Below, piece after piece: positions 1-15,346 of a DNA stretch of 32,065 nt. Position 1 is the stretch's first letter. Each line of letters begins with the position of its first letter. This stretch comes from Dehalococcoidia bacterium (GTDB taxonomy: Bacteria > Chloroflexota > Dehalococcoidia > DSTF01 > RBG-16-68-14): assembly GCA_040882355.1 (NCBI GenBank), contig JBBEBM010000032.1, forward strand, positions 1 to 32,065. Direction: 5' to 3'. The notes beneath the pieces are model-generated. The model was not told the origin of the DNA and did not search any database. It saw only the letters and a program-made list of their open reading frames with translations. The position numbers and the translations under genes were made by a program.

Positions 1-2237
1 GCCTGGGGCAGGTCGGGGTTGTCGGTGAAGCCGGCGGGCTCGAAGTGGACGCCGCGGAACTTACGCACCAGGTCCTCCAGCGCCACGCCGTACTGCAGCG
101 CCAGCGACGTCAGCACTGCCACCGAGTCCATCAGCCCGCGGATCGTCGAGCCTTCCTTCGAGATCGTGATGAACACCTCGCCAGGCTGGCCGTCCTCGAA
201 CAGGCCGACCGTGATGTAGCCTTCCTGCTCGCCGACGCGGAACTTGTGCGTGACCGAGGGCCGTTCGTCGGGCAGGCGGCGACGGCGGAGGTGCTCCTCG
301 CCTCCGCCAGTCGCCTTCGCCACCAGGGCCGTTACTTCTCCTTCCGCACCGCTCAGGACAAGCTCCGCCGCTTGCGCCTCGGCCTGCTCCGGGCCGCGCG
401 CGGTGGCGTGCGACAGCACCTGAAGCGCCCGCGACTGGTCGCGATAGATGGTGATCCCCTTGCAGCCCTCTCGATACGCCAGCAGGTAGGCGCGCTCGAC
501 GTCCTCGACGGTCGCCGACGAGCGGAAGTTGATCGTCTTGCTCACGGCGTTATCGGTGTGGCGCTGGAAGGCGGCCTGCATGCGCACGTGCCACTCCGGA
601 TCGATCTCATGCGACGTAACGAAGGCGCGCCGCACCCACTCGGGCACGTCGTCGCGGTCCTGGATGCTGCCGCCGCGCGCCAGCTCCTCGATCAGCGCCT
701 TCGAGTAGAAGCCCTCGGCCTTGGCGATGCGTTCGAAGGCGCGGTTCACTTCCGGTAGCTGCGTCACTTTGTCGGGGTCCTTCGGGTCGAGGTGGTGCTG
801 ACGCATGAAGGCAAGCGCGAAGGCGGGCTCGATGCCGCCCGAGCAGTCGGCGATGATGCTCAGCGTGCCCGTCGGCGCGACGGTGGTGCGCGTCGAGTTG
901 CGGAAGCGGGCCTTTCCTTCGTAGACGCTGCCCTCCCAGGCAGGGAAGACGCCGCGCTCGCGCGTCAGCTCTTCAGACGCGGCGTCGGCGTGCTCCTGGA
1001 TGAACGACATCATGCGCTCGCCCAGCGCCACCGCTTCGTCCGAATCGTACGCGATGCGTAGCGCCGCGAGCAGGTCGGCCCAGCCCATCACGCCGAGGCC
1101 GATCTTGCGGGTGCGCTTCGTCGCCTCCTCGATCTGAGGGATCGGGTAGACGTTCTGGTCGATGACGTCATCGAGGAAGCGCACACAGTCGGGGATGACG
1201 GCGGCGAGCTCGTCCCAGTCCACGCTGGCATCAGGGTCATGGGTCAAGGGTCTAGGGTGAAGGCGGCGGCCGTTCCGACTACGGCGCTTAGTGTCGCGTT
1301 GTTCCTTGCGGCCGTTCGCCGGAGTGACGAACTTCGCGAGGTTGAGCGAGCCGAGGTTGCACGACTCGTACGGCAGCAGCGGCTGTTCGCCGCAGGGATT
1401 CGTCGCCTCAATCGGGCCGAGCTGCGGCGTTGGGTTGTCGCGGTTGATGCGGTCGAGGAAGACGAGGCCCGGGTCGCCGTTCTTCCAGGCGTTCTCGACG
1501 ATCCGTCGGAAGACGTCGCGCGCCTTCCGACGGCCGGCCGACTTGCGCGTGCGCGGGTTGACCAGCGTAAACGTCTTGTCGCGCTCCACCGCGTCCATGA
1601 AGGGCGCGTCCACGGCGACTGAGATGTTGAAGTTTTGCAGGCTCACCATGTCCGCCTTCGCGTCGATGAACGCCTCGATGTCCGGGTGGTAGACGGAGAG
1701 GATCGCCATGTTGGCGCCGCGACGGGTGCCGCCCTGCTTGATCGCCTCGGTCGCCGCGTCGAAGACCTTCATGAAGGAGACGGGGCCCGACGCGACGCCG
1801 CCCGTCGCCGAGACGCGGTCGCCCTCGGGGCGGAGGCGGCTGAAGGCGAAGCCGGTGCCGCCGCCCGACTTGTGGATCAGCGCGGTGTCCTTGATCGCGT
1901 CGAAGATGCCTTCCATCGAGTCCTCGACGGGCAGCACGAAGCAGGCCGAGAGCTGCTGGAGAGGTCGGCCGGCGTTGCCGAGCGTCGGCGAGTTGGGCAG
2001 GAAGCGAAACGAGGTCATCAGCTCGTAGAAGCGCGCCTCGACAACCGCCACCTCTGCGGGCTTGGCGCCGTACCGCTCCTCCGCCAGCGCGACGTTGCGG
2101 GCGACGCGCCGGAAGAGCTGCTCGGGCGTCTCGGTGACGCGGCCGTGCTCGTCCTTCGCCAGGTAGCGGCGCTCCAACACCATGCGGGCGTTGGGCGAGA
2201 GTGCGATGGGGCGCTCTCGAGCGCGCGTGCGAGCCAT
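1..2237 (-). CDS. nrdJ: Class II (adenosylcobalamin-dependent) ribonucleotide reductase with C-terminal TSCPD-like region; 3' end outside window
   Basis: Manual minus-strand translation from ATG 2237 (SD GGAGG at 2246-2242): MARTRARERPIALSPNARMVLERRYL...FLPNSPTL...QLSACFVLPVEDSMEGIF...GGGTG...QGGTRRGANM...NFNISV...GDPGLVF...ATNPCGEQPLLPYESCNLGSLNL...RKIGLGVMG...TTVAPTGTLS...NAVSKTIN...KGITIYRD...VTHKFRVGEQEGYITVG. Open to position 1, so absent from the ORF track. Confidence 0.93.
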   Translation of the reverse strand, partial: MARTRARERPIALSPNARMVLERRYLAKDEHGRVTETPEQLFRRVARNVALAEERYGAKPAEVAVVEARFYELMTSFRFLPNSPTLGNAGRPLQQLSACFVLPVEDSMEGIFDAIKDTALIHKSGGGTGFAFSRLRPEGDRVSATGGVASGPVSFMKVFDAATEAIKQGGTRRGANMAILSVYHPDIEAFIDAKADMVSLQNFNISVAVDAPFMDAVERDKTFTLVNPRTRKSAGRRKARDVFRRIVENAWKNGDPGLVFLDRINRDNPTPQLGPIEATNPCGEQPLLPYESCNLGSLNLAKFVTPANGRKEQRDTKRRSRNGRRLHPRPLTHDPDASVDWDELAAVIPDCVRFLDDVIDQNVYPIPQIEEATKRTRKIGLGVMGWADLLAALRIAYDSDEAVALGERMMSFIQEHADAASEELTRERGVFPAWEGSVYEGKARFRNSTRTTVAPTGTLSIIADCSGGIEPAFALAFMRQHHLDPKDPDKVTQLPEVNRAFERIAKAEGFYSKALIEELARGGSIQDRDDVPEWVRRAFVTSHEIDPEWHVRMQAAFQRHTDNAVSKTINFRSSATVEDVERAYLLAYREGCKGITIYRDQSRALQVLSHATARGPEQAEAQAAELVLSGAEGEVTALVAKATGGGEEHLRRRRLPDERPSVTHKFRVGEQEGYITVGLFEDGQPGEVFITISKEGSTIRGLMDSVAVLTSLALQYGVALEDLVRKFRGVHFEPAGFTDNPDLPQ
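1234..1261. repeat. Heptamer tandem repeat (GGGTCAT GGGTCAA GGGTCTA GGGTGAA) inside an in-frame basic insertion of nrdJ-1
   Basis: Four 7-nt units read directly. They lie in the stretch encoding TPANGRKEQRDTKRRSRNGRRLHPRPLTHDPDAS between LAKFV and VDWDEL. Confidence 0.7.
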
Positions 2238-2368: not shown

Positions 2369-2833
2369 TCATTGACCGAAGAACTCCGCAAGATCGACGG
2401 TCGAGTCCCGGCCCGCAGACGAGAAGTCATACGTCTCTGGTATCACGGACAATCCTCCGGCGACTGGGTTGTTATGGACGTACTCGATCGTGTCCCAAAG
2501 CTGCTTGTCGTTGCGAATGATCCGGTCGTAGAAGCTCTGCTGCCAGACGGAACCTCGACGGCCAGCTCGAGCGTTGAGGACGCGCGAGGTGTAGCCCTTC
2601 AAGCCTTGCATGATTTGCGAGCTGGTGTAGTCGTCTCTGGGAACGATGAGCGCATGGACATGGTCAGGCATGACAGCGAACGCCAGCAAGTAGCACCGCC
2701 GGCGCAGGTGCTGGAGCGCAGCCACCACGATCCCCGCATTGGACGGATCACGAAAGAGCGGGTCGCGGCCGCGCGTCGTTGTGACGACGTGATAGCACGT
2801 GTTCTCTTCGCCGTATCGGTGTAGCTTCGCCAT
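2369..2833 (-). mobile_element. REP-associated tyrosine transposase (RAYT/TnpA-REP, IS200/IS605 Y1 HuH superfamily)
   Basis: 154 aa with CYHVVTTT, VMPDHVH (HuH), WQQSFYDRIIR, EYVHNNP (catalytic Tyr) and YDFSS; flanked by GTAG-type REPs. Confidence 0.9.
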
Positions 2834-4472: not shown

Positions 4473-4675
4473 CGATACCACTGCAGCCGCGGAATGAGAG
4501 GCGTGAGACGCCCGTCCCCGCTCCGTGGCGACCCGAGCGGCTGCACAGCGGACGCGAGGGAGACGCAGAGGCGTCCCAAGGGGAAGGGTGGGACGCCTCG
4601 TTACGTGGCAGGCCGCCGGTGCTGGTGGCGGGGTGGTGGTTTCGGCGACCTATAGCCCAATTTTACGATGCCCAA

Positions 4676-4740
4676 ACGCCCGCCGAAGTTATGGAGAGCG
4701 GGGCATCCTTGCTCCGCCGGTCCATAACTCCGGCGGGCGT
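4676..4740. terminator. Long hairpin between convergent genes; possible terminator or RNA-processing site
   Basis: ACGCCCGCCG-A-AGTTATGGA pairs with TCCATAACT-C-CGGCGGGCGT, plus inner stem GCGGGGCA/TGCTCCGC. Only a short U-run follows on the minus strand. Confidence 0.5.
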
Positions 4741-4823
4741 CCTGAATTCTAGCCGGTCTCTGCGCGGTTGTGGGCGTTTATTACGTCAATTTCGTGTGAA
4801 TTTTCACGAATTGACGATAACGT

Positions 4824-5262
4824 CTACCTCCGCGCGCTGGCCAGAGCTCGACTGCGAGTCGCGGCCGACTTTGGCCGGTTGTTGTTGCTGCGGGCGGCCG
4901 TCTTGCGGACCGTCGTCTTGCGAACCGCCGTCTTGCGGGCGGCCGGCTTGCGAGCGGTGGTCTTGCGGACTGCCGTCTTGCGGGCGGCCGGCTTGCGAGC
5001 GGTGGTCTTGCGGACTGCCGTCTTGCNNNNNNNNNNNNNNNNNNNNNNNNNNNNNNNNNNNNNNNNNNNNNNNNNNNNNNNNNNNNNNNNNNNNNNNNNN
5101 NNNNNNNNNNNNNNNNNNNNNNNNNNGAGCGACCGTCTTTCGCGCGACCGTCTTGCGAGCCGTCGTCTTCCTAGCGACTGTCTTCTTCCTGGCCGGCGCC
5201 TTCTTCGCGACCGTCTTCCTCACCGTCGAGGTCTTCCTTCTCGTCGTTGTCCTTGCTGGCAT
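4824..5262 (-). CDS. Histone H1-like / chlamydial Hc2-like basic protein built of RK[TP]xx pentapeptide repeats; interrupted by assembly gap
   Basis: ATG 5262 with SD GGAGGG 8 nt upstream: MPARTTTRRKTSTVRKTVAKKAPARKKTVARKTTARKTVARKTVA. After the gap the repeat frame reads RKTAV RKTTA RKPAA RKTAV RKTTA RKPAA RKTAV RKTTV RKTAA RSNNNRPKSAATRSRALASARR to TAG at 4826-4824. Confidence 0.8.
4927..5026. repeat. Exact 45-bp tandem duplication (three 15-bp pentapeptide units), continuing into the gap
   Basis: 4927-4971 is identical to 4972-5016; a third copy begins at 5017. Confidence 0.9.
5027..5126. other. Scaffold gap (100 N) inside the pentapeptide repeat
   Basis: Run of 100 N. The true length is unknown and is probably a collapsed repeat. 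Confidence 0.98.
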
Positions 5263-5298
5263 ATTCCATGCCCTCCTTTCGCGGTCTCTTCCCGCTTC

Positions 5299-8097
5299 TT
5301 ACGAACACCCGCTAGTGCTGCCGCAATTTCCGCAGCGATAGCAAGTGCCGCTTCGCACCATGATCCAGCCACAGTTCGCGCAGGCCGGGGCGTCGGACTG
5401 TCCGCGACGCATCACGCCGGCATGCACAACGTCGATCGCGGTTTCGGCATGACCGTTGCCCGCGATCTCACTGTGACCATTGGAACCGTTCGCGTCGTTT
5501 TCCACATGTTCCAACCGTTCAATCATGCGCTGCTTTACTTCTTGGGTCAAGATCCCCAAGTCCTCAACTTCGTCCGCCGTGAGGAATTTCGATGCGAGCC
5601 AGCGGAACAAGTAGTCGATGATCGATTGCGCGAACGGTATCTCGGGGTTCGACGTCGCGCCCGCGGGCTCGAAACGCATGTGACTGAAGTTGCGCACGAG
5701 GTCGCGCAACGGCACGCCGTACTGCAGCGCGTACGAGATCGCGCGACCGAAGGACTCCATCATGCCATAGATGGTGCTGCCCTGCTTCGCCATGCTGACG
5801 AACACCTCCGCCGGCGTGCCGTCCTCGTACAACCCGACGGTGAGATAGCCGGTGTGGCCCTCGATCTTGAACTTGTGCGTGATCGAGGTGCGCGTGTCGG
5901 GCAGCTCGCGGCGGACCGGGTGCGGCGTGTCGGCCGGTAGCGCGCCGTTACTGCGCGAGTTCGTGTCGTTCGTGCCGGTGGAGAGCGGCTGCACCTTCTT
6001 CGAGCCGTCCCGGTAGACGGCGATCGCCTTCACGCCGTGGCGCCACGCCTCGGTGTAGGCGTCCATCACGTCGCCGGCGGTCGCTTCCTGCGGCAGGTTG
6101 ACCGTCTTGGAGATCGCGCCGGAGATGAACGGCTGGACGGCGCCCATCATCTTGATGTGGCCCATGTGATGGATGGTGCGTTCGCCTTGTTCCGCCTTGA
6201 ACGCGCAATCGAAAACGGGCAAATGCTCCTCCTTGAGTCCCTTTGCTCCTTCTATAGTACCTGTTTCATCGATTACACGCACTATCCGATCAACAAGATC
6301 GTTGTCATAACCAAGCCGTCGTAGCGCGAGGGGCACGGTGTTGTTCACGATCTTCATCAATCCGCCGCCTACGAGCTTCTTGTACTTCACCAGCGCGATG
6401 TCCGGCTCGACGCCGGTTGTGTCGCAGTCCATCATGAACGCGATCGTGCCCGTCGGCGCGATCACCGTCGCCTGCGCGTTGCGATAGCCGTGCGCGCTGC
6501 CGAGATCGAGCGCGCGGTCCCAGGCGTTACGCGCGGACGCGACGAGCTCATCGAAGTTCGACGCCGTCATGTCCGCGTTCGACGCATCGATCGCGTGAGA
6601 CGCGTCGCGGTGCTGCGCGATGACGCGCAACATCGGCTCGCGGTTCTTGTGGTACGCCGCGAACGGGCCGACGCGCTCCGCTATCGTCGCGGAGGTGGCG
6701 TAGGCGTGGCCCGTCATCAGCGCGGTGATCGAGGCGGCGTAGGCGCGGCCGGCGTCCGAGTCGTACGGGACGCCGAGCGCCATCAGCAGGGCGCCGAGGT
6801 TGGCGTAGCCGAGGCCGAGCTGGCGCATGTCGTTCGCGTTTCGCTCGATCTTGGGGGTCGGGTAGCTGGAGTAGCCGACGATGATCTCCTGCGCCCAGAT
6901 CATCGTCGCCACCGTCCGCCGGAAGCCCTCGACGTCGAAGCGGCCCTCCTCATCGAGGAAGGTGAGGAGGTTGATGGAGGCCAGGTTGCAGGCCGAGTCG
7001 TCGACGTGCATGTACTCAGAACACGGGTTCGAGGCGTTGATCCGGCCGGAGTTCGGACAGGTGTGCCAGTGGTTGATGATGGTGTCGAACTGCATGCCCG
7101 GGTCGCCGCACTCCCAGGTCGCCTGGGCGATACGGCGCAGCACCTCGCGCGCCTTGACCACGTCCATCGTCTGGCCCGAGGTGATCCCGCGCAGCTCCCA
7201 GTCGCGGTCGTCGATGACGGCTTGCATGAACTCGTCCGTGGCGCGGACCGAGTTGTTGGCGTTCTGGAACTGGACCGAGGCCCAGGCCTCGCCGTTGAGC
7301 GACATGTCCCAGCCGGCGGCGCCCAGGTCATACGCCTTGCGCTCCTCGCGCGCCTTGCACTCGATGAACTCGAGCACGTCCGGGTGCTCCGCGTTGAGGA
7401 CGACCATCTTCGCGGCGCGCCGCGTCTTGCCGCCGGACTTGATCGAGCCGGCGATAGCGTCGGCGCCGCGCATGAACGATACCGGGCCCGACGCGATGCC
7501 GCCCGACGAGAGCTGCTCGCGGCTCGAGCGGATTTTCGAGAGGTTGACGCCGGAACCGGAGCCGCCCTTGAAGATCATCCCTTCCGTCTTCGACCACTCC
7601 AGGATCGACTCCATGGTGTCGTCCACGGAGAGGATGAAGCAGGCCGAGCACTGCGGCTTCTCTTCGACGCCGACGTTGAACCAGACCGGGCTGTTGAAGC
7701 AGGCCTTCTGGTGGAGCAGCAGGTGCGTCAGCTCCGCAGCGAACGTCTCCGACTCATCGGCCGACGCGAAGTAGCCGCCGTCGACGCCCCACGACGTGAT
7801 CGTGTTGACGACGCGGTCGATGAGCTGGCGCACGGAGGTCTCGCGCTGCTCTGTGCCGAGCGGGCCGCGGAAGTACTTGGAGACGACGACGTTGGTCGCC
7901 GTCAGCGACCAGAACGCGGGCATCTCCACCTCGTGCTGCTCGAAGACCGCCTGGCCGGACTCGTCGGCGATGCCGGCGGAGCGTCGTTCCCACTCGACCA
8001 GATCGTAGGGGTGCACGCCGGGCGTGGTGAAATAGCGTTCGATACGGAGCGCGTCCGAAACCTCAGTGTGGCCTGTCCTGTCCGGCGTCATGACCAT
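5299..8097 (-). CDS. nrdJ: Second class II ribonucleotide reductase (932 aa) with TSCPD region and C-terminal Cys4 zinc ribbon
   Basis: FNSPVWFN, PQCSACFILSVDD, GSGSG, SGGKTRRAAKM, QNANNSV, GDPGMQFD, ASNPCSEY, ACNLASINL, LGLGYANLG, APTGTIAF, ISKTVN, AVYRDGSK, SITHKF, CANCG...CGNCGSTSGCS. Confidence 0.96.
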   Translation of the reverse strand: MVMTPDRTGHTEVSDALRIERYFTTPGVHPYDLVEWERRSAGIADESGQAVFEQHEVEMPAFWSLTATNVVVSKYFRGPLGTEQRETSVRQLIDRVVNTITSWGVDGGYFASADESETFAAELTHLLLHQKACFNSPVWFNVGVEEKPQCSACFILSVDDTMESILEWSKTEGMIFKGGSGSGVNLSKIRSSREQLSSGGIASGPVSFMRGADAIAGSIKSGGKTRRAAKMVVLNAEHPDVLEFIECKAREERKAYDLGAAGWDMSLNGEAWASVQFQNANNSVRATDEFMQAVIDDRDWELRGITSGQTMDVVKAREVLRRIAQATWECGDPGMQFDTIINHWHTCPNSGRINASNPCSEYMHVDDSACNLASINLLTFLDEEGRFDVEGFRRTVATMIWAQEIIVGYSSYPTPKIERNANDMRQLGLGYANLGALLMALGVPYDSDAGRAYAASITALMTGHAYATSATIAERVGPFAAYHKNREPMLRVIAQHRDASHAIDASNADMTASNFDELVASARNAWDRALDLGSAHGYRNAQATVIAPTGTIAFMMDCDTTGVEPDIALVKYKKLVGGGLMKIVNNTVPLALRRLGYDNDLVDRIVRVIDETGTIEGAKGLKEEHLPVFDCAFKAEQGERTIHHMGHIKMMGAVQPFISGAISKTVNLPQEATAGDVMDAYTEAWRHGVKAIAVYRDGSKKVQPLSTGTNDTNSRSNGALPADTPHPVRRELPDTRTSITHKFKIEGHTGYLTVGLYEDGTPAEVFVSMAKQGSTIYGMMESFGRAISYALQYGVPLRDLVRNFSHMRFEPAGATSNPEIPFAQSIIDYLFRWLASKFLTADEVEDLGILTQEVKQRMIERLEHVENDANGSNGHSEIAGNGHAETAIDVVHAGVMRRGQSDAPACANCGWIMVRSGTCYRCGNCGSTSGCS

Positions 8098-8128
8098 GTT
8101 GCGGGGGACTCCCTTCCCAAAGATCGTC

Positions 8129-8914
8129 TCAGTTCAGTGTTGCCGGCCTCACGACCGACAGGACGAAGCGCGCGCTGCCACGCAGGAAGCCCTTCGCTTC
8201 GCAGTGGTAGACGCACCATGGCTGGTCCGGCCACGGCGTCTCGTGTCCGGTCTCTCGTTGCTTCGACGCGTAGGCGCGCGCGATCGGCGACGTCTCGTTC
8301 GACAGGCTGCGGTAGGCCGTCGCGCCTTTCGCGGTGAGCAGCGGCTGGCCGCTCTTCCAGCGCACGCGCAGCCCGAGCTTCTGCTCGCGCTCCCAGCAGA
8401 CGACCTGCGCGGGCGCGTCGGAGAGCTCGCCCATGCGCAGCGCTGTCGACTGCAGCGACGCCTCGTAGGTGCGCGCGAGCCGCTCGACGGTGTTCAAGCT
8501 GACGCCCTCGCCCTGCATCGACTGCGTGAACATCTCGTACGGCATGAGTAGCTCGGCGGCGATCTGGTCGCAGAGCCGCTCGAGCGCCGTTCCGCGGCGC
8601 GGCGTGCGCGCGGCGAGCACGACGGTGGCGGGCTTGTCGCCCATCCTGTCGACGATCGTGTGGGCGATCTCGTGCGCCATCGTGAAGCGCTCGCGCAGCG
8701 GCTGGCGGCTGTTGAGCAGCATCGTCAGGCTGCCGTCCTGACCCTCCTTGACCATGCCGAGCGTGCGCTTCATCTTGCGATGGCGGATCGAATTGATGCC
8801 CTGCAGCTTTGCAAGCTGGACGAGATCGACGGGCGGCTCAGAGACACGCGCGGCATCGAGCAGCCGGTTCACGGCCTCCCGAATCGTCTCGCTGTCGATC
8901 TGTACGGCGGTCAT
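8129..8914 (-). CDS. ImmA/IrrE-family (peptidase M78) zinc metallo-endopeptidase, 261 aa
   Basis: Start re-assigned to ATG 8914 (SD GGGGAGG at 8923-8917). Motifs PPVDLVQLA, RERFTMAHEIAH (HExxH), LERLCDQIAAELLMP (third ligand Glu), HTH-like VERLARTYEASLQSTALR, then a beta-rich C-terminal domain. Confidence 0.88.
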   Translation of the reverse strand: MTAVQIDSETIREAVNRLLDAARVSEPPVDLVQLAKLQGINSIRHRKMKRTLGMVKEGQDGSLTMLLNSRQPLRERFTMAHEIAHTIVDRMGDKPATVVLAARTPRRGTALERLCDQIAAELLMPYEMFTQSMQGEGVSLNTVERLARTYEASLQSTALRMGELSDAPAQVVCWEREQKLGLRVRWKSGQPLLTAKGATAYRSLSNETSPIARAYASKQRETGHETPWPDQPWCVYHCEAKGFLRGSARFVLSVVRPATLN

Positions 8915-8978
8915 TGCCTCCCCAATGCCCTCAAGGGGCGCCCGCTCCTCCGGGGGCGCCCCGTCGGGCCTACGACGA

Positions 8979-9377
8979 TCAGCGTGCGGCCGGCGTCTCC
9001 CTTGCGGGCGAGACGGGCGATCCCTCGCCCGCATCGCCGGCCGCTCTCGCGTCCTGCGCATCTTCAGTTGGCTGCGACGACCCGCCTTTCGCGAACTCGC
9101 CCTTGGCCAGCCGCAGCCGGTACATAGTGCGCCGCCCATTCCCGCCGGGCGGCTGGCCCGGCAGACGAAGCCGCACGATCATCGGGCGGCGGGTGACGCG
9201 GATCTGACGGCCGGAGTCCAACTCCAGCGCGAGGCCGCCGTGCGCCGTACGGATCGAATGCGACTCGCGCAGCGGCTCCATCGTGGCGACAGCGGCCGCC
9301 TCGTCGAGCTGGCAGGGGCCTTCAGCGATCAGCTCGCCTTCGGCGTTCACAAGCCGGGCGTGGGGGCGCTCGATCAT
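8979..9377 (-). CDS. Hypothetical protein (132 aa), translationally coupled to nrdR
   Basis: ATGA overlap with the nrdR stop at 9374-9377 and GGAGG upstream. Fills the space between nrdR and the protease. Confidence 0.7.
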   Translation of the reverse strand: MIERPHARLVNAEGELIAEGPCQLDEAAAVATMEPLRESHSIRTAHGGLALELDSGRQIRVTRRPMIVRLRLPGQPPGGNGRRTMYRLRLAKGEFAKGGSSQPTEDAQDARAAGDAGEGSPVSPARETPAAR

Positions 9378-10006
9378 GAGCGTTGCCTCCGATGCCGGGC
9401 CTCGCCCAGCTCGCTCGGCGGCGTCCGGCGGACGTTCGTCGAGCCGGCCGGCCTGCCTCGACGCCGTCGCACCGGGAAGGCGCGCACGCCGCGGGTGAGC
9501 GTACGCAGATCTTCTTCAGGCAAGAGGGGCGGCTGGCCGGCGCCCGGCCCGGGCGGCGTGCCGCGCGTCGCGAGCGACTCCAGCTCCTGCTGCAGCTCCT
9601 CCAGGTCGGCGAAGGACCGGTAGACGGAGGCGAACCTGATGTAGGCGATATGGTCGAGCTCGCGCAGGTGGTCCATCACCAGCTCGCCCACCTCCTCGCT
9701 GGGTACCTCGGGCGCGCCTCGCTGGCGGAGCGCCGATTCGATCGCGTCGGCGACGGCCTCGATGGTGCCGCCGGGGAGCGGGCGCTTCTCGCAGGCCTTT
9801 CGCAGCCCGCCGAGCAGCTTCTCGCGCGAGAACTCCTCGCGCCGGCCGTCCTTCTTGACGACGAGCAGCTCACCGGCGGTGAGGCGCTCCATGGTGGTAA
9901 AGCGCTGCTCGCAGTTCAGGCACTCGCGGCGGCGACGAATGCCGTCGTCGGCGTCCCGTGAGTCGGTCACCTTCGTATCTGCGAAACCACAATATGGACA
10001 ACGCAT
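9374..10006 (-). CDS. nrdR: Transcriptional repressor NrdR with about 60-aa C-terminal extension
   Basis: MRCPYCG...VTDSR...IRRRRECLNCEQRFTT zinc ribbon, VVKKDGRREEFSREKL ATP-cone, AYIRFASVYRSF. Confidence 0.97.
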   Translation of the reverse strand: MRCPYCGFADTKVTDSRDADDGIRRRRECLNCEQRFTTMERLTAGELLVVKKDGRREEFSREKLLGGLRKACEKRPLPGGTIEAVADAIESALRQRGAPEVPSEEVGELVMDHLRELDHIAYIRFASVYRSFADLEELQQELESLATRGTPPGPGAGQPPLLPEEDLRTLTRGVRAFPVRRRRGRPAGSTNVRRTPPSELGEARHRRQRS

Positions 10007-10022
10007 GGCTCTCGTAAAGTCG

Positions 10023-10052
10023 AATCTAGCACAACATCTGGTGCAGTGTCAA
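10023..10052 (-). promoter_or_regulatory. Sigma70-type promoter of the nrdR operon
   Basis: Minus strand TTGACA (10052-10047), 18-nt spacer, TAGATT (10028-10023), with TG at the extended -10 position. Ends 16 nt before the nrdR ATG. Confidence 0.8.
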
Positions 10053-10073
10053 GTCAGATCACCAGATATTGTG
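10030..10073. promoter_or_regulatory. Pair of NrdR boxes
   Basis: CACAACATCTGGTG (10030-10043) and CACCAGATATTGTG (10060-10073) are 13/14 reverse complements of each other and 30 bp apart. They fit the NrdR-box consensus acaCwAtATaTwGtg, and one lies in the promoter spacer. Confidence 0.85.
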
Positions 10074-10155
10074 GAAACAGGCGTGCGAAAGGTCTACGCC
10101 CCTACCTAGATTGCCCGGCGCGTGCTGCCGAGAATACTAACAGCATGGGCAGAGT

Positions 10156-10182
10156 TAAAGATCCGTTCGCTGCCGCCGATAC
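10156..10182 (+). promoter_or_regulatory. Sigma28 (FliA/WhiG/SigD)-type promoter for the Tad pilin cluster
   Basis: TAAA (10156-10159), 15 nt, GCCGATAC (10175-10182), versus consensus TAAA-N15/16-GCCGATAA. A weaker copy TAGA-N16-GCCGAGAA lies at 10107-10134. Confidence 0.65.
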
Positions 10183-10232
10183 TGCTATCGGGAGAACCCC
10201 TAAGGGGTTCGACCCCGACAACAGAAGAGACG

Positions 10233-10328
10233 ACTCCGAACGAGGGCAAACCCGGTGAGAGCCGGGGACGCAAAGCCACGGATCTCCCCTCCGCTCCATG
10301 CGGAGACAGACCGCCGGGCTGCCGGAGC
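10233..10328 (+). ncRNA. Cyclic di-GMP-I (GEMM) riboswitch
   Basis: AGGGCAAACCCGG-TGAGA-GCCGGGGACGCAAAGCCACGGATC...GACCGCCGGGCTGCCG, with P1 CTCCG/CGGAG. The GGGCAAACC, GGACGCAAAGCC and GGGCTGCCG landmarks are in the expected order upstream of pilin genes. Confidence 0.9.
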
Positions 10329-10343
10329 CCATTCGGAGCCTTC

Positions 10344-10374
10344 AGCCCACCGCCAGGCATGAAGGCGGTGGGCT
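10344..10374 (+). terminator. Hairpin in riboswitch expression platform
   Basis: 11-bp stem AGCCCACCGCC/GGCGGTGGGCT with weak U-tract (TTCCTAT). A competing pairing is GCCTTCA 10338-10344 with TGAAGGC 10360-10366. Confidence 0.55.
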
Positions 10375-10405
10375 TCCTATCGTGGAAGGCCCGTGGAGGT
10401 GCGCA

Positions 10406-10894
10406 GTGACGAATCTAACGCATATCACGGCAACCGAGGGAGACGAGATCTTGGAGCGCCAGGGTCGCAAACCGAGACCGTGGCGCGCAAGCCGGCGGCT
10501 GGGCCGGTTCGCCAGGCGAGAGCGTGGCCAGAACATTGTTGAGTTCGCGATCATGGCGCCCCTGCTCTTCCTCCTGGTGTTCGGCATCATCGATTTCGGC
10601 ATCGGCCTCCACTCGTGGATCACGGTCACCAACGCGGCCCGCGAAGGCGCCCGGCTCGGGGCCGTTCACGCGTCGGAAGCGGAGATCATCGCGAAGGTAG
10701 AGGAGTCAGCGCACAACGTCGATCCGGCGGACCTCGACATTACCGTCACCAACGAGGACCCGGACGGCCTGAGCACGGGCGAGCCTGTGACCGTGGAGGT
10801 CGCGTACGAGTACACGCTGATGACGCCCCTGAGCGCCATGCTCCAGATCCCCAGCTTCAACATCGTGTCCACGGCCGAGATGCGGCTCGAGTGA
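10406..10894 (+). CDS. TadE-like minor pilin
   Basis: GTG 10406 with GGAGG at 10395-10399; basic leader RRERG|QNIVEFAIMAPLLFLLVFGIIDFG...NAAREGARLGAV. Confidence 0.88.
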   Translation: MTNLTHITATEGDEILERQGRKPRPWRASRRLGRFARRERGQNIVEFAIMAPLLFLLVFGIIDFGIGLHSWITVTNAAREGARLGAVHASEAEIIAKVEESAHNVDPADLDITVTNEDPDGLSTGEPVTVEVAYEYTLMTPLSAMLQIPSFNIVSTAEMRLE

Positions 10895-10923
10895 CTGGCA
10901 AGGCCAAAGTGAGTGCGACAGCG

Positions 10924-12789
10924 ATGAAAGCAACGACAAACCGAAACGCGGACAGGCCTCACGGCGAGCGTGGGCAGATCATGTGGCTGTGCGCATTCAT
11001 GCTCGCCATCCTCCTGGGGATGGTCGCCATGGTCGTGGACGTCGGCAACTTCCTGCACGAGCGGGCGCAGCTCCAGACGGTCGTGGACGCGGCCGCACTG
11101 GCAGCGGCTCAGGAGCTGCCGGACAACGACACGATGGCTGACGACGTTGCCCTCGAATACGCCGCGGCCAACCACCCGACGCTCGATCTCTCGAACGTGA
11201 ACAGCACCTTCTACTGCTTCGTTGGGGACGACGACGACAACGGCGTTCCCGACGCGAACGACATTCCGGCCGCCTGCAACCCGGGCAGCAACGCTGCCTG
11301 GACCTGCGGCGGCGGCGCCTGCGCGAGCCCCTGCTTCCCCAACGAAGGCGACAAGTGCAACACCATCAGCGTGGGCGCGGAGAACAGCGTCTCGTTCATC
11401 TTCGCTCCCGTCATTGGCATGGAGGAAGCGGACACCGGGACCATCCATGCCGCCGCCTGCCACGGCGCCTGCGGCGGACCAGCCGCCGGCCCGCTGGACG
11501 TGGTGATGATCATCGACCGGTCCAGCAGCATGAGCAGCTCGGAGCTGAACGACGCTAAGACAGCGGCGAGGGCCGTCCTGGACATCTTCAATCCGGCACA
11601 GCAGCACGTCGCCCTTGGCGTCCTGGGCGCCAGTGACCCGAGCAACCTCTGCAACGACGAGGACCCCGATGACGGCGGCACCTGGCTGGCGGTGCCCCTC
11701 TCCAGCGACTTCAAGAACTCGGACGGAACGCTGAACACCTCCAGCTCCCTGGTGAGCACGATCAACTGCCTCACCAGCTCCAGCCAGGGGACGAACCTGG
11801 GCAGCCCGATCAACGACGAGGCGTACGGCCAGCCGGACGCGATGTCGCACCTGCTCACCAGCGGCCGTCCGGGCGTGAAGAAGGCGATCATCCTGTTCAC
11901 GGACGGCGCGGCCAACCAGCCGACGAGCACCCCCGCCACCAACACGGGCTGGCTGAACTGCGCCGCGCAGGCCGCGACCACCGGCGGCGACAACAACGGC
12001 TTCCAGACAACCCCAATCGGCGCGTGCGCGGACGCCGGCACGGAGGCCTCGGACGCGAACAGCGGCACCGGCACCAGCACGTCCTGCACGAACAGCGGCA
12101 AGGACAAGCACATCTTCTACGACTACAACATCAGCGCACCCGCTGGTAACACCATCGACGGCATCGAAGTCCGGCTGGACGCGAGGATCAATACCGCTTC
12201 CGGCACCCGGCGCATGTGCGTGCAGCTTTCATGGGACGGCGGCACGACGTGGACCTCAACCGACCAGACTTCGAACCTGAGCACGAGTCAGCAGACCTAC
12301 ACGCTGGGCGACAACGACGATGACTGGGGTCACACTTGGACGGCCAATGAGCTCACGAACGCGAACTTCCGCGTCCGCGTCATCGACGTAGCGGACAGCA
12401 CCAGCCGCACATTTCTCCTGGACTGGGTCTCCATCCGGGTGCACAGCAGCCAGAGCTTCGACGCATGCGAGTACGCGTTCGACCAGGCCGAGACGGCGAA
12501 GGCCGCCGACATCGAGATCTTCGCCCTGGGCTACGGCCTGGAGAACGAGGAATGCGGAGACAGCTCCAGCTCCCCGTACAACAACCAGTCCGTGACGGAG
12601 CTGCTTGGCGACATGGCGACCGACTCCGAGGATGAGACCGGGTGCGACAACGCATCTGAAGCAGCCCAGGAGAACGGCGACGGCGACCACTTCTACTGTG
12701 AGACCGATTCGTCCGGCCTCTCCGCCATCTTCCAGCAGGCCGCTGAACAACTGGCCACCGGCTCTCGCCTAGTGCGACTTCCGTTCTGA
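10924..12789 (+). CDS. TadG-like pseudopilin with vWA domain (MIDAS DRSSS), Cys-rich segments and an inserted beta-rich domain; start uncertain (10909 GTG or 10924 ATG)
   Basis: GERG|QIMWLCAFMLAILLGMVAMVVDVG...LQTVVDAAALAAAQEL; LDVVMIIDRSSSM, GTNLG, IILFTDG, IEIFALGYG, LSAIFQQAA. Confidence 0.88.
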   Translation: MKATTNRNADRPHGERGQIMWLCAFMLAILLGMVAMVVDVGNFLHERAQLQTVVDAAALAAAQELPDNDTMADDVALEYAAANHPTLDLSNVNSTFYCFVGDDDDNGVPDANDIPAACNPGSNAAWTCGGGACASPCFPNEGDKCNTISVGAENSVSFIFAPVIGMEEADTGTIHAAACHGACGGPAAGPLDVVMIIDRSSSMSSSELNDAKTAARAVLDIFNPAQQHVALGVLGASDPSNLCNDEDPDDGGTWLAVPLSSDFKNSDGTLNTSSSLVSTINCLTSSSQGTNLGSPINDEAYGQPDAMSHLLTSGRPGVKKAIILFTDGAANQPTSTPATNTGWLNCAAQAATTGGDNNGFQTTPIGACADAGTEASDANSGTGTSTSCTNSGKDKHIFYDYNISAPAGNTIDGIEVRLDARINTASGTRRMCVQLSWDGGTTWTSTDQTSNLSTSQQTYTLGDNDDDWGHTWTANELTNANFRVRVIDVADSTSRTFLLDWVSIRVHSSQSFDACEYAFDQAETAKAADIEIFALGYGLENEECGDSSSSPYNNQSVTELLGDMATDSEDETGCDNASEAAQENGDGDHFYCETDSSGLSAIFQQAAEQLATGSRLVRLPF

Positions 12790-13101
12790 CCGAACGGCCT
12801 CCCGCTCCTGCATCGCCGCCCAAGGGCGGCGGTGTGGGGGTCTCAGGGCAAGGCTCGCCCGCAGAAGACACGTCGCCCGTGCGGGTTTCCCCCGACACGA
12901 CCGAACCTTACCAAGAGGGGGTAGCAGCGCCGCCCCGGCGGCCATCGCGGCGCCATCCGGCCGCGAAGGCGGGGCGCCGTCTATCTGCAGGCTGGGGTTC
13001 TCATCTCCCATCGGACGGAGAGGGCAACAGTTCTGCGCCATGGCTGCCGAAACTCTAGTGGTAAACCCTGTGCGGGTTTACCCGAAGCGCGAGAGGCCGG
13101 T

Positions 13102-13536
13102 ATGAGCAACGCCACCAAGCCAGGGAAGGGACCGCGGAAGCGGCTGCGCTCCAGCCGCGGCCAGAGCATGGCCGAGCTGGGCCTTGTCCTCCCAATCATC
13201 ATGCTGATCATCGTCGGCGTCGTGGAGATCGCCGACGGGATGAACGCCTACCTCACGGTCGTCGACTCGGCGCGAGACGGCGCCCGCCTGGGCGCCAAGG
13301 GCGGCGCATCGGACGACGAGATCAAGAACCTGGTGGTGACGGAGACGGACCGCCTGCGCGACCCGATCGACCCCAGCACCGACATCACGGTCGATCACGT
13401 CACGGTCGACGGCGTTGATGCGATCCGCGTCGAGGTATGCAACGACCGCTCGCTCCTCATGGGCGTGCCGCTTGTCTTACCCGAGGACTTCCGCATGTGC
13501 AGCACTACAACCATGCGTGTCTTGCCGGCATCATGA
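13102..13536 (+). CDS. TadE-like minor pilin
   Basis: RSSRG|QSMAELGLVLPIIMLIIVGVVE...DSARDGARLGA. Confidence 0.88.
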   Translation: MSNATKPGKGPRKRLRSSRGQSMAELGLVLPIIMLIIVGVVEIADGMNAYLTVVDSARDGARLGAKGGASDDEIKNLVVTETDRLRDPIDPSTDITVDHVTVDGVDAIRVEVCNDRSLLMGVPLVLPEDFRMCSTTTMRVLPAS

Positions 13537-13562
13537 TCAAACCAGGGGGTGGGAGAACGGCG

Positions 13563-14828
13563 ATGCAACGACTCAACAGCGAACGGTCCCAAGTACTACC
13601 GATCATGGCGCTGCTGTGCGTGGCGCTCATTGGCCTGATGGGCCTTGCCCTGGACATCGGCCGGATTGTGATCGCGAGAGCGGAGCTGAGCCGGGCGCTG
13701 GACTCGGCGGCGCTTGCCGGCGTGGTCGAGTTGCCGAACGTCGACGCGGCGCAAGACCGCGCGGCCGTCTACATGGACGACAACCTCCCGACCAGCACGA
13801 TCAGCTTCCCGGCGACCGAACAGGAGTACCAGTTCCGGGTGCAGGGCGAACGCACCGTGGACTTGATCTTCATGGGCATCTTCGGCTTCGGCGAGACAGC
13901 CATTGACGCCCAGGCCGCCGCCGGATACGGCATCATCCCTGTCGACGCCATGGTCACGCTGGACGCGACGGGGAGCATGCATACCGGCTGCAACGCCGAC
14001 GAAACCAACACCGGCGGCGCCTGCCCTATCAAGGAGGCGCGGGACGCCGCTAGCCTGTTCGCGGACATTCTCCTACCCAACACACCCACGTCTACGACCA
14101 CCAAGGTCGCGTCCGGCGCCTTCCGAGGCTGTTACGACCCGCCCAGGGACAACGTGAAGTGCATCCCCACATCTGTGATCCAGGCGCTAACGAACAACCA
14201 GACGACGATCATAAACGGGATCAGCAACATCCACGCGGTTGGCGCGACGGGCCAGCCGACCGGCGGCTCAGGCACGAACATCTGCCAGGCGCTGAAAAAG
14301 GTGCAGGACACGATCTTCGGCGCCGGCTCCCACACAGAGACGAACACGCTGCGCTTCGTCGTCATCCTCTCCGACGGTGACAGCGTCTACAACGCCACGC
14401 AGGTGAACCAGACGAGTCCTCAGTCGCCGGAGTCGCCGTGCCGTCCGACGAACCCGTCCACCAACGACGGTGACGTGAGCGCGAACTGCCTGAACACGAC
14501 GCAGACCCAGGAGGCGAAGGTCGACCGCCTTTCGAAGACACAGGCCGACAACATCAGGCTCCAGGGAGTCGAGATCTACGTCGTCGCGTTCAGCGTCTGC
14601 GGCGGCGCCGGCGCGCACACCGGCACCTGTCCGACCAACTCGAGCACCGTCATCGGGCAGACCGGCTCGTCATTCCCTGACAGTCTGACGGACCACGTGC
14701 TCTTGAAGTGCATCGCCTCGTCCAAGTCGGGCACGAACGATCACTACTTCGAGACGTCGACCGCTTCTGAGCTGCCTGGCATCTTCGAGCAGATCGCGCG
14801 CAGCATCACCTACCGGCTGACGGAGTGA
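13563..14828 (+). CDS. Second TadG-like pseudopilin with vWA domain
   Basis: ATG 13563 after GGGAG; SERS|QVLPIMALLCVALIGLMGLALDIG...RALDSAALAGVVEL; VTLDATGSM, GTNI, VVILSDG, VEIYVVAF, LPGIFEQIA. Confidence 0.86.
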   Translation: MQRLNSERSQVLPIMALLCVALIGLMGLALDIGRIVIARAELSRALDSAALAGVVELPNVDAAQDRAAVYMDDNLPTSTISFPATEQEYQFRVQGERTVDLIFMGIFGFGETAIDAQAAAGYGIIPVDAMVTLDATGSMHTGCNADETNTGGACPIKEARDAASLFADILLPNTPTSTTTKVASGAFRGCYDPPRDNVKCIPTSVIQALTNNQTTIINGISNIHAVGATGQPTGGSGTNICQALKKVQDTIFGAGSHTETNTLRFVVILSDGDSVYNATQVNQTSPQSPESPCRPTNPSTNDGDVSANCLNTTQTQEAKVDRLSKTQADNIRLQGVEIYVVAFSVCGGAGAHTGTCPTNSSTVIGQTGSSFPDSLTDHVLLKCIASSKSGTNDHYFETSTASELPGIFEQIARSITYRLTE

Positions 14829-14848
14829 CGGAGAAGGGCCGCACGAAC

Positions 14849-15346
14849 ATGGCAGTGAACAAGCGCGGACGCAAGCGGCAGCGCGGACAGGCGATCGCTG
14901 AGTTTGCCATGATCACGCCGGTGCTGATGCTGATCATCTTCGGCATCATCGATATCTCGCGCATCTACAACGCGTGGGTAACCGTCCAGGGCTCGGCGCG
15001 GGAGGCCGCCCGTTACGGCGTCACCGGCCGCTCCGACTGCAACATCACCACGCCGACGCGGATCGACTGCATCGAGGACGCCGCGTTCCGGCGCGCCGAC
15101 GCGCTCACGAACACCCCTGCTGACATTGGCATCAGCGTGCGGAGCTGGGAGTTCCCGGACTACGACAATCCTCCGACCGAGGACGACGCCGGCGAGCAAT
15201 GCGACGCGCTGGAGGTGCAGATCGACTACGACTTCACGCCCTCCACGCCGCTCATCGGCAACATCATCGGCGACATCCACCTTGTGGGACGCGAGCGGAT
15301 GGTGAACGAGCCGTTCGGGCCCTGCGAGCCGCCGCCGCCCGACTAG
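14849..15346 (+). CDS. TadE-like minor pilin (alternative GTG start at 14825 overlapping upstream stop)
   Basis: RKRQRG|QAIAEFAMITPVLMLIIFGIIDISR...SAREAARYGV. Confidence 0.88.
   Translation: MAVNKRGRKRQRGQAIAEFAMITPVLMLIIFGIIDISRIYNAWVTVQGSAREAARYGVTGRSDCNITTPTRIDCIEDAAFRRADALTNTPADIGISVRSWEFPDYDNPPTEDDAGEQCDALEVQIDYDFTPSTPLIGNIIGDIHLVGRERMVNEPFGPCEPPPPD

What the first reader, a model, noticed from the sequence alone, without database searches (positions are those of the whole stretch)
4824..10073. Candidate new module: NrdR-boxed operon nrdR - unknown ORF - IrrE-like protease - class II RNR - histone-like protein
Seen: five same-strand genes with tight junctions (ATGA overlap, then 64, 31 and 36 bp gaps) behind one sigma70 promoter overlapped by NrdR boxes. 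The third gene has a full M78 zinc site (HEIAH...ERLCD..AA.LLMP), an HTH-like segment and a C-terminal domain. Known: IrrE/PprI, ImmA and CapP are stress or DNA-damage-activated proteases that cut an HTH repressor (DdrO, ImmR, CapH). ImmA and CapP are encoded beside their targets. No XRE/HTH gene occurs in this window, and the only regulator in the operon is NrdR, which is normally controlled by nucleotides rather than proteolysis. Inference: a damage-sensing protease switch wired to dNTP supply and nucleoid compaction, with NrdR's tail, the 132-aa ORF or the basic repeat protein as candidate substrates.
Basis: partly seen in the sequence, partly recalled or inferred. Interest (0 to 1): 0.78.

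Follow-up and report, generated by a model that had tools for sequence, protein, structure and literature searches.

The report
IrrE-like protease inside nrdR-nrdJ operon
A gene for a protease of the type that senses DNA damage sits inside the operon that makes and regulates the enzyme supplying DNA building blocks in a Chloroflexota bacterium. A few relatives share this layout, but the protease's target is still unknown.

Summary
Five minus-strand genes run nrdR, a 132-aa ORF, an M78 peptidase, class II RNR nrdJ and a basic repeat protein. Their junctions are -4, 64, 31 and 36 nt. They follow one sigma70-like promoter that overlaps two NrdR boxes and end at strong hairpins.

The peptidase is a complete IrrE/PprI/CapP-type enzyme with an intact zinc site, an HTH-like linker and a GAF-like domain (model pLDDT 88; Foldseek E about 1e-12).

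The layout is not unique. Contig-length matching places orthologues (46-89% identical) with NrdR on five other contigs, three of which also hold the ORF. It is a minority form: 4 of 30 long NrdR contigs match the peptidase.

The ORF belongs to a narrow, unnamed small-protein family, so far seen mostly in Chloroflexota, that is linked to nrdR on 30 contig lengths, mostly without the peptidase. It is therefore not a dedicated substrate. The extended NrdR tail is likewise clade-wide.

No XRE gene lies in the window, and no substrate was identified. Most likely this is a damage-sensing protease co-expressed with RNR under NrdR and acting on an unlinked repressor. NrdR as its target is not excluded.

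Verdict: a new variant of a known kind, of moderate interest.

The parts
10059..10074 (.). NrdR box 1 (distal), just upstream of the -35 hexamer
   Evidence: Exact match to the box core pattern at 10060..10073. It scores 12 of 16 against the recalled consensus. It is the inverted-repeat partner of box 2.
10029..10044 (.). NrdR box 2 (proximal), filling the spacer between -35 and -10
   Evidence: Exact core match at 10030..10043, and 11 of 16 against the recalled consensus. The spacer to box 1 is 14 nt, within the bound range of 14-17 nt.
10023..10052 (-). Sigma70-like promoter TTGACA-18-TAGATT with TG extension
   Evidence: 10 of 12 match. It is the only promoter-like site in an intergenic stretch of 4500..10500.
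9374..10006 (-). nrdR, 210 aa: Zn-ribbon plus ATP-cone plus a clade-specific C-terminal extension of about 55 aa with an RGRP core
   Evidence: Pfam Zn_ribbon_NrdR 4e-18 and ATP-cone 1.5e-23. TIGR00244 scores 181 bits against a cut-off of 124.65. The tail is conserved in 39 clade members.
8979..9377 (-). ORF2, 132 aa: a small beta-barrel protein of an unnamed family, seen mostly in Chloroflexota. It is translationally coupled to nrdR through the ATGA overlap.
   Evidence: 107 homologous clusters, none with a Pfam domain. 47 representatives among 1.84 billion, all 54-221 aa, with no fusions. The model has 7 strands in residues 1-93 and a disordered tail. No significant fold match. GC3 is 0.83.
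8129..8914 (-). IrrE/PprI/CapP-type metallopeptidase, 261 aa: M78 domain (HEIAH 81-85, E112), HTH-like linker (about 140-165) and GAF-like domain (about 168-258)
   Evidence: Pfam PF06114 1.6e-14. PADLOC capP 7.5e-31. AF2 model pLDDT 88.2, pTM 0.84. Foldseek matches IrrE 3dti, PprI 8sln and CapP 7t5t at E about 1e-12 over 262-283 columns. The profile against PDB sequences gives 8slm 1.9e-13.
5299..8097 (-). nrdJ, adenosylcobalamin-dependent class II ribonucleotide reductase, 932 aa
   Evidence: Pfam Ribonuc_red_lgC 6e-144, Ribonuc_red_2_N and TSCPD. NCBIfam PRK06556 scores 1434.7 bits against a cut-off of 859.
4824..5262 (-). Lys/Arg/Thr/Ala-rich repeat protein (histone-H1/HC2-like in composition only), interrupted by a masked run of 100 N at 5027..5126
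   Evidence: Sub-threshold HC2 hits. The repeat continues in a frame shifted by one base after the N run and ends at a TAG near 4824.
4672..4821 (-). Two strong hairpins (4780..4821 and 4672..4741) after the last gene. They are the probable end of the transcript and lie between the operon and the convergent fucosidase gene.
   Evidence: RNA fold MFE -77.6 kcal/mol, z -7.75, with 0 of 200 shuffles folding as well. There is no canonical U-tract. No minus-strand terminator-like site was found inside the operon.

Best explanation
This is one NrdR-autoregulated operon of a Dehalococcoidia-related Chloroflexota bacterium: nrdR, ORF2, an irrE/capP-like peptidase, nrdJ and a basic repeat protein.

Shown:
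- The third gene encodes a complete, catalytically intact three-domain peptidase of the IrrE/PprI/CapP type.
- It sits between ORF2 and nrdJ with short gaps and its own ribosome site.
- The same linkage to nrdR recurs on five other contigs.

Inferred:
[quoted passage not shown] When dNTPs are needed, the protease therefore rises together with the reductase.
- Like IrrE and CapP, the enzyme is then switched on by single-stranded DNA bound in the groove between the peptidase and GAF-like domains, and possibly by zinc.
- It cleaves a repressor. The most likely substrate is an XRE/DdrO-type repressor encoded elsewhere in the genome, as I recall is the case for irrE and ddrO in Deinococcus.

On this reading the operon position links the amount of a DNA-damage sensor to dNTP demand, rather than placing the sensor beside its target. 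ORF2 is a separate matter. It is a conserved accessory protein linked to nrdR, its role is unknown, and it predates and outnumbers the protease insertion.
For: Fold and catalytic residues:
- Model pLDDT 88.2.
- Foldseek top hits are IrrE, PprI (including the ssDNA complex 8sln) and CapP at E 1e-12, TM 0.60-0.69, spanning all three domains.
- HEIAH, E112, C115 and D116 are invariant or nearly so in 21 sequences.
- PADLOC capP scores 105 bits.
- A basic residue (R74, Lys in some orthologues) sits 7 residues before the first His. That is the spacing of CapP R90 and IrrE R85, which contact ssDNA (Results part 1, Discussion).
- In IrrE, a GAF-like domain is required for stimulation by ssDNA.

Operon:
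- One promoter with the boxes.
- No promoter-like site in the intergenic gaps and no minus-strand terminator-like site before the hairpins.
- GC3 of the peptidase gene is 0.91, against 0.89 for nrdJ, so it is not visibly foreign.

Conservation:
- 5 contig-length matches of 3.4 kb or more between peptidase orthologues and NrdR, against 0.03 expected (data).
- Pairwise identities of the two proteins co-vary, r = 0.89 over 10 non-independent pairs.

No partner in cis:
- 0 of 48 ORFs carry an HTH domain.
Against: - The rest of the genome could not be read, so an unlinked XRE repressor is assumed, not seen.
- In CapP and in the 2 of 2 distant M78 loci examined, the substrate-type gene is adjacent. 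Its absence here is therefore unusual.
- Linkage to nrdR is kept while the peptidase has diverged to 46-52% identity. That could mean more than co-expression.
- Co-transcription, metal dependence, ssDNA activation and proteolysis are all untested.
- The contig-length method shows co-residence on a contig, not adjacency, except on the short contigs (3457 and 1595 bp).
Confidence: 0.5

Rival explanations
1. The protease acts on a product of its own operon: NrdR (for instance by removing the clade-specific basic C-terminal tail with its RGRP core), ORF2 or the basic repeat protein. DNA damage would then directly derepress RNR.
For: - No XRE gene lies in cis.
- The peptidase co-resides with NrdR on 5 further contigs, against 0.03 expected, and has co-diverged with it.
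- NrdR here carries a conserved extra tail, and ORF2 has a conserved disordered tail. Either could in principle be a cleavage site.
Against: - The NrdR tail and ORF2 are conserved across the clade, mostly where no peptidase orthologue was matched. ORF2 matches NrdR on 30 contig lengths, against 4 for the peptidase; 4 of 30 long NrdR contigs have the peptidase.
- On contigs 9808 and 8424 the peptidase occurs with NrdR but no ORF2 hit.
- To my recollection, every characterised substrate of this family is an XRE-type HTH repressor. For DdrO and CapH this is supported.
- No test of cleavage or binding between the peptidase and any operon product was run.
Confidence: 0.12
2. An orphan remnant. The peptidase is what is left of a mobile or defence-type CapH/CapP or XRE/M78 pair that landed in the operon and lost its partner. 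It has no working relation to ribonucleotide reduction.
For: - The best profile match is the defence-associated capP model.
- The distribution on the NrdR tree is patchy: 5 changes, of which at least 3 are forced by well-supported branches.
- It is in a minority of loci.
- An IS200-type transposase lies 5 kb away.
Against: - Catalytic and structural residues are intact and conserved in orthologues down to about 41% identity.
- The position next to nrdR is kept across that divergence.
- Base composition matches the neighbours.
- No defence genes appear in the window.
Confidence: 0.15
3. A non-proteolytic sensor. The protein works as a ligand- or ssDNA-binding regulator through its HTH-like and GAF-like domains, as I recall the M. 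tuberculosis regulators with an M78-like plus GAF-like core do. It would modulate nrd expression or NrdJ without cutting anything.
For: Foldseek also matches the M. tuberculosis transcriptional regulator entries 6d2s, 6cyy and 6cz6 at E 1e-8. Rir, another family member, may lack peptidase activity despite having the motif (Discussion).
Against: The full zinc site and the catalytic Glu are invariant or nearly so. Matches to the active proteases are four orders of magnitude better. There is no separate DNA-binding HTH domain.
Confidence: 0.08

Closest known systems
Deinococcus IrrE/PprI with the repressor DdrO
   Same: The same three-domain architecture and zinc site, and the best structural matches (3dti, 3dte, 8slm, 8sln). 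There is no cysteine-switch loop. As I recall, the protease gene is not next to its substrate gene in Deinococcus either.
   Different: Only 21-23% identity. The phylum differs. The gene is embedded in an operon carrying NrdR boxes. No DdrO-like gene or RDR-type operator was seen, although the rest of the genome could not be read.
CapP/CapH regulators of CBASS and other defence operons
   Same: The strongest profile hit (PADLOC capP 7.5e-31) and the highest TM-score (7t5t, 0.69). A basic residue sits at the position of ssDNA-contacting R90.
   Different: No CapH/XRE gene and no defence operon lie beside it. There is no Cys in the loop equivalent to the cysteine switch (residues about 91-110). 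Its neighbours are housekeeping nrd genes.
ImmA/ImmR of ICEBs1 and the generic COG2856-XRE pairs
   Same: The M78 catalytic domain.
   Different: Those lack the GAF-like domain and are not stimulated by ssDNA. They are encoded beside their XRE partner, as in loci L001 and L002.
Streptomyces nrdRJ operon (nrdR co-transcribed with class II nrdJ behind two NrdR boxes)
   Same: nrdR and nrdJ lie in one unit behind a pair of NrdR boxes that overlap the promoter. The nrdRJ boxes of S. coelicolor are cited (passages).
   Different: Here two extra genes (ORF2 and the peptidase) sit between nrdR and nrdJ, and a basic repeat protein follows. NrdR carries an extra tail of about 55 aa. The box spacer is 14 nt.

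Membership tests
IrrE/PprI/CapP-type three-domain M78 peptidases | HExxH plus a downstream Glu as the zinc site, with a catalytic Glu | tested here: met
   HEIAH at 81-85 and E112 in ERLCD. E112, C115 and D116 are invariant, and H81, E82 and H85 are conserved in at least 90% of 21 sequences. The site aligns to the IrrE, PprI and CapP active sites.
IrrE/PprI/CapP-type three-domain M78 peptidases | Peptidase domain, HTH-like linker and C-terminal GAF-like domain in one chain | tested here: met
   Model pLDDT 88.2, pTM 0.84. Foldseek alignments of 262-283 columns to 3dti, 8sln and 7t5t at E about 1e-12, with separate GAF-domain hits.
IrrE/PprI/CapP-type three-domain M78 peptidases | ssDNA-binding groove residues and ssDNA-stimulated cleavage | tested here: inconclusive
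   Only one position could be mapped by sequence: R74 (Arg or Lys in orthologues) at the spacing of CapP R90 and IrrE R85. The GAF-side residues could not be aligned. Activity is not testable here.
IrrE/PprI/CapP-type three-domain M78 peptidases | A cleavable XRE-family repressor as substrate | not testable with these tools
   None is present in the 32-kb window. The rest of the genome was not available.
CapP/CapH defence regulators | An adjacent capH (XRE) gene and an associated immune operon | tested here: not met
   0 of 48 ORFs carry an HTH domain, and the neighbours are nrd, Tad-pilin and dcw genes. PADLOC found nothing in the other three operon proteins scanned, and nrdJ was not scanned.
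CapP/CapH defence regulators | A cysteine-switch loop (present in only part of the family) | tested here: not met
   There is no Cys between the HEIAH helix and E112. This loop is the low-confidence stretch 94-107 of the model. The source paper says not all CapP homologues have the switch.
NrdR repressors | Zn-ribbon plus ATP-cone, and paired NrdR boxes at an nrd promoter | tested here: met
   (TIGR00244 above its cut-off). The spacer of 14 nt is within the bound range.
Class II (adenosylcobalamin) ribonucleotide reductase NrdJ | A match above the curated cut-off to NrdJ equivalog models | tested here: met
   PRK06556 scores 1434.7 bits against a cut-off of 859, and TIGR02504 scores 605.9 against 399.95.
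Histone H1-like Hc2 nucleoid proteins | A match above the family cut-off | tested here: not met
   Pfam HC2 scores 24.8 bits against 40, and NCBIfam Hc2 scores 28.9 against 135. The resemblance is in composition only, and the gene is interrupted by masked sequence.

The most novel reading that the evidence does not exclude
An ssDNA-sensing IrrE/CapP-type protease encoded inside the nrdR-nrdJ operon cleaves NrdR itself, or the ORF2 protein linked to nrdR. One possibility is removal of NrdR's clade-specific basic C-terminal tail. DNA damage would then override the nucleotide-sensing repressor and switch on dNTP synthesis. That would be the first proteolytic input into NrdR and the first non-XRE substrate for this protease family.
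Probability: 0.1. Interest if true: 0.85.

Novelty: new variant of a known kind. Interest (0 to 1): 0.5.

Why it matters
IrrE and CapP are the known protease-based, ssDNA-triggered alternatives to the SOS response. So far they are tied to Deinococcota repair regulons and to phage-defence operons.

Here a complete enzyme of this type is inherited inside an NrdR-controlled ribonucleotide reductase operon in several Chloroflexota lineages, without its usual XRE neighbour. That points to a physiological link between damage sensing and dNTP supply that I did not find in print. Whole-word searches gave 0 papers for nrdR with ImmA and 1 unrelated review for NrdR with IrrE. None of the 40 listed of 105 papers holds NrdR, and none of the 15 listed of 167 holds M78.

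The work also surfaced two features that matter for NrdR biology, since to my knowledge no NrdR partner protein has been described:
- a small, unnamed protein family translationally coupled to nrdR
- a clade-specific NrdR tail

Tried and rejected
- Genome scan. The single genome-contig scan, run with the peptidase as one protein, returned only distant relatives. L001 and L002 are 31-32% identical over the N-terminal 157 residues. L003 and L004 are weak C-terminal fragments and were not examined.
- Adjacency through accession numbers failed, because almost none are held.
- Co-fold of NrdR with ORF2: the verdict was 'no answer' (score 0.00 in both runs, against a mark of 0.32). It says nothing either way.
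- ORF2 fold searches found nothing significant: PDB best E 0.07, viral library best E 0.02. The Atlas returned only unnamed, mostly Chloroflexota clusters, plus TM below 0.5 to phage head-tail and PilZ-like barrels. A PilZ RxxxR reading of the ORF2 N-terminus was dropped because the first Arg is not conserved.
- ORF2 fusions: none among 47 representatives.
- The plasmid collection held no close relative of the peptidase. The best hit is 33% identity over 63% of the query.
- The nrdJ 90% cluster gave no contig length shared with the other genes.
- Two contig-length matches were discarded as chance. For 1291 bp, the three genes would not fit and the sources differ. For 1602 bp, the sources differ.
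- No further palindrome lies in the promoter region.
- No Rfam element lies in the operon.
- No NrdR-box-like site lies upstream of the second nrdJ.


Full report
**What is there.**
The window is 68% G+C. Between 10074 and about 4670 it carries five minus-strand genes:
- nrdR (9374..10006, 210 aa)
- an unnamed ORF2 (8979..9377, 132 aa)
- an M78 peptidase (8129..8914, 261 aa from the ATG that the orthologues share)
- a class II ribonucleotide reductase, nrdJ (5299..8097, 932 aa)
- a Lys/Arg/Thr/Ala repeat protein (about 4824..5262)

The junctions are a 4-nt ATGA overlap, then 64, 31 and 36 nt. Each of the four downstream genes has a purine-rich ribosome site upstream. All have the high third-position G+C of real genes here, 0.83-0.91.

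A TTGACA-18-TAGATT promoter with a TG extension lies at 10052..10023. Two copies of the NrdR-box core occur at 10030..10043 and 10060..10073. These are the only two matches in the window (0.39 expected; 7 of 100 shuffles reach two). They are the only two 16-mers scoring 11 of 16 or better against a consensus I recalled from memory. They are 93% complementary to each other. One fills the -35/-10 spacer and the other abuts -35.

Taken as 16-nt boxes, the spacer is 14 nt. That is one less than the usual 15-16, but within the 14-17 nt that four tested NrdRs bind (passages of bioRxiv 10.1101/2024.05.27.596032).

No promoter-like site lies in the intergenic gaps, and no minus-strand terminator-like site lies inside the unit. 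After the last stop codon come two strong hairpins (MFE -77.6 kcal/mol, z -7.75), facing the convergent fucosidase gene. The sequence therefore reads as one operon. Transcription itself is untested.

**The peptidase.**
- Pfam gives M78 at 1.6e-14. The PADLOC capP model gives 7.5e-31.
- With an alignment of 21 relatives, the AlphaFold2 model has mean pLDDT 88.2 and pTM 0.84. It shows a peptidase domain, two short helices of an HTH-like linker and a C-terminal alpha/beta domain.
- Foldseek against the PDB ranks D. deserti IrrE (3dti, 3dte), D. geothermalis PprI with and without ssDNA (8sln, 8slm) and Thauera CapP (7t5t) first. These score E 1e-12 to 7e-12 and TM 0.60-0.69, over alignments of 262-283 columns that cover the whole chain. 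M. tuberculosis regulators follow at 1e-8, and isolated GAF and PAS domains come lower.
- A sequence profile finds the same three proteases.
- HEIAH, E112, C115 and D116 are invariant or nearly so.
- A basic residue sits seven residues before the first His. That is the spacing of the ssDNA-contacting CapP R90 and IrrE R85.
- The loop that carries CapP's cysteine switch has no Cys here. This is also true of IrrE and of part of the CapP family.

Membership of the three-domain IrrE/CapP group is therefore met on every feature that sequence and fold can test. Activity, ssDNA stimulation and the substrate cannot be tested here.

**Is the arrangement conserved?**
No orthologous DNA could be fetched. 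I therefore used a proxy, the contig length that the protein database reports for each cluster.
- The peptidase has 14 orthologous clusters, one of them a partial sequence, at 41-88% identity. Several are named Dehalococcoidia or Chloroflexi MAG proteins.
- I matched 29 orthologue entries against the 119 best NrdR hits and 107 ORF2 hits.
- The peptidase shares a contig length with NrdR at 3457, 8424, 9808, 13811 and 19338 bp. That is five matches of 3.4 kb or more, against 0.03 expected under a jitter control.
- It shares a contig length with ORF2 at 1595, 3457, 13811 and 19338 bp.
- Two short matches (1291 and 1602 bp) were rejected as chance.
- On the five contigs, the peptidase is 46-89% identical between pairs and NrdR 68-90%. 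The two sets of values co-vary, r = 0.89 over ten non-independent pairs.

The form is nonetheless a minority one:
- Of 30 NrdR contigs of 5 kb or more, four match the peptidase and ten match ORF2.
- On a tree of 39 NrdRs, the peptidase-positive rows are scattered: five changes, at least three of them forced. Four of the five fall in one ten-row subtree.

Several limits apply to these counts:
- Only 119 of at least 8000 NrdR hits were listed.
- The contig length is a property of the cluster, not of each member.
- Co-residence on a contig is not adjacency, except on short contigs.
- Six peptidase contigs of 3.4 kb or more stayed unmatched (3414, 3856, 5801, 15086, 44850 and 157258 bp). That is uninformative.

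**ORF2 and the NrdR tail.**
ORF2 is a real gene.
- It has 107 homologous clusters at 38-92% identity, none with a Pfam domain.
- It has 47 representatives among 1.84 billion proteins, all 54-221 aa, with no fusions.
- Atlas clusters are assigned mostly to Chloroflexota.
- The model is a seven-stranded barrel over residues 1-93 plus a disordered tail. There is no significant fold match.
- The family keeps a single invariant Cys and a conserved C-terminal tail.
- It shares a contig length with NrdR at 30 values, 17 of them 3.4 kb or more against 0.1 expected. Several of those contigs are too short to hold much beyond the two genes.

ORF2 is thus linked to nrdR far more widely than to the peptidase. 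Conversely, contigs 9808 and 8424 hold the peptidase and NrdR without an ORF2 hit.

NrdR of this clade carries an extension of about 55 aa, with a conserved helix-like motif and an RGRP core. By recollection this resembles an AT-hook, although Pfam reported no such domain. The extension is conserved in all 39 aligned members, with or without the peptidase. Neither feature is therefore specific to the protease, which weakens both as dedicated substrates. A co-fold of NrdR with ORF2 gave no answer (see Tried and rejected).

**What is missing.**
None of 48 ORFs scanned carries an HTH or XRE domain. In contrast, both distant M78 loci that I could read (Lentisalinibacter L001 and a Pseudomonadales MAG, L002) have an XRE gene immediately upstream of a two-domain, 176-aa peptidase. 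CapP is likewise described as working with an adjacent CapH (abstract). By my recollection, irrE and ddrO are not neighbours in Deinococcus. An unlinked substrate therefore has precedent for exactly the GAF-bearing type seen here.

**Most likely mechanism (confidence 0.5).**
NrdR, loaded with dATP and ATP, binds the two boxes and represses the whole unit. This is established for NrdR (abstracts listed, including PMC9110341). When it releases, the reductase and the protease rise together. The protease is then activated by ssDNA in the inter-domain groove, and perhaps by zinc, and cuts a repressor encoded elsewhere.

The fold, the catalytic residues, the operon layout and the conserved linkage are shown. 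Co-transcription, activation and the substrate are inferred.

Rivals:
- An orphan remnant of a mobile XRE/M78 pair (0.15). Conservation and native base composition count against it.
- A non-proteolytic sensor (0.08). The intact zinc site counts against it.

**Comparison and novelty.**
The protein works like, and on testable features belongs with, IrrE/PprI/CapP. It is not a CapP/CapH defence regulator, because the adjacent-partner and immune-operon features are not met. The frame of the operon is the nrdRJ arrangement known from Streptomyces, with two inserted genes.

I found no paper that links NrdR with ImmA, IrrE, PprI, CapP, COG2856 or M78:
- 0 papers.
- 1 unrelated review.
- none of the 40 listed of 105 papers holds NrdR.
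- none of the 15 listed of 167 papers holds M78.
- word-start matches only, all unrelated.
- DdrO with Chloroflexi gave 4 unrelated papers.

I rate this a new variant of a known kind, with interest 0.5. The context is unreported and makes a damage-to-dNTP link testable. However, the protease is ordinary in itself, it is accessory to the operon, and no target is in hand.

Noticed in passing
window 10235..10326 (+): A c-di-GMP-I riboswitch (RF01051, 63.9 bits against a gathering score of 35). It is divergent from the nrdR promoter and leads into a run of TadE/TadG-like pilin genes with VWA domains (10298..15346).
   Followed up: no
window 3..2237 (-) and 2369..2833 (-): A second class II RNR paralogue (PRK08665, 980 bits), cut by the window edge. 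An IS200-type Y1 transposase lies directly upstream, and no NrdR-box-like site is present there. The window therefore carries two nrdJ genes, only one of them behind NrdR boxes.
   Followed up: partly
window 9374..9540 (-), C-terminal 55 aa of NrdR: A clade-specific NrdR extension with a conserved helix-like motif and an RGRP (AT-hook-like) core. It is conserved in 39 relatives of 201-218 aa. On the two contigs with the peptidase but no ORF2 hit (9808 and 8424), the RGRP core is degenerate.
   Followed up: partly
window 8979..9377 (-): The ORF2 family keeps one invariant Cys (C22) and a conserved disordered C-terminal tail after a linker of variable length. The function is unknown, and the family is a candidate accessory of NrdR or NrdJ.
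   Followed up: partly
window 5027..5126: A masked run of 100 N inside the basic repeat gene. The repeat reading frame differs by one base on the two sides, so the protein's length and frame are unresolved.
   Followed up: yes
window 19999..22623 (-): An 874-aa ORF in the dcw cluster that combines Mur ligase (MurC-like) domains with MurB domains (FAD_binding_4 and MurB_C). It appears to be a fused MurC-MurB.
   Followed up: no
window 4672..4741 (-): A long, almost perfect hairpin between the convergent operon and the fucosidase gene. It is unusually strong for a terminator and has no U-tract.
   Followed up: partly
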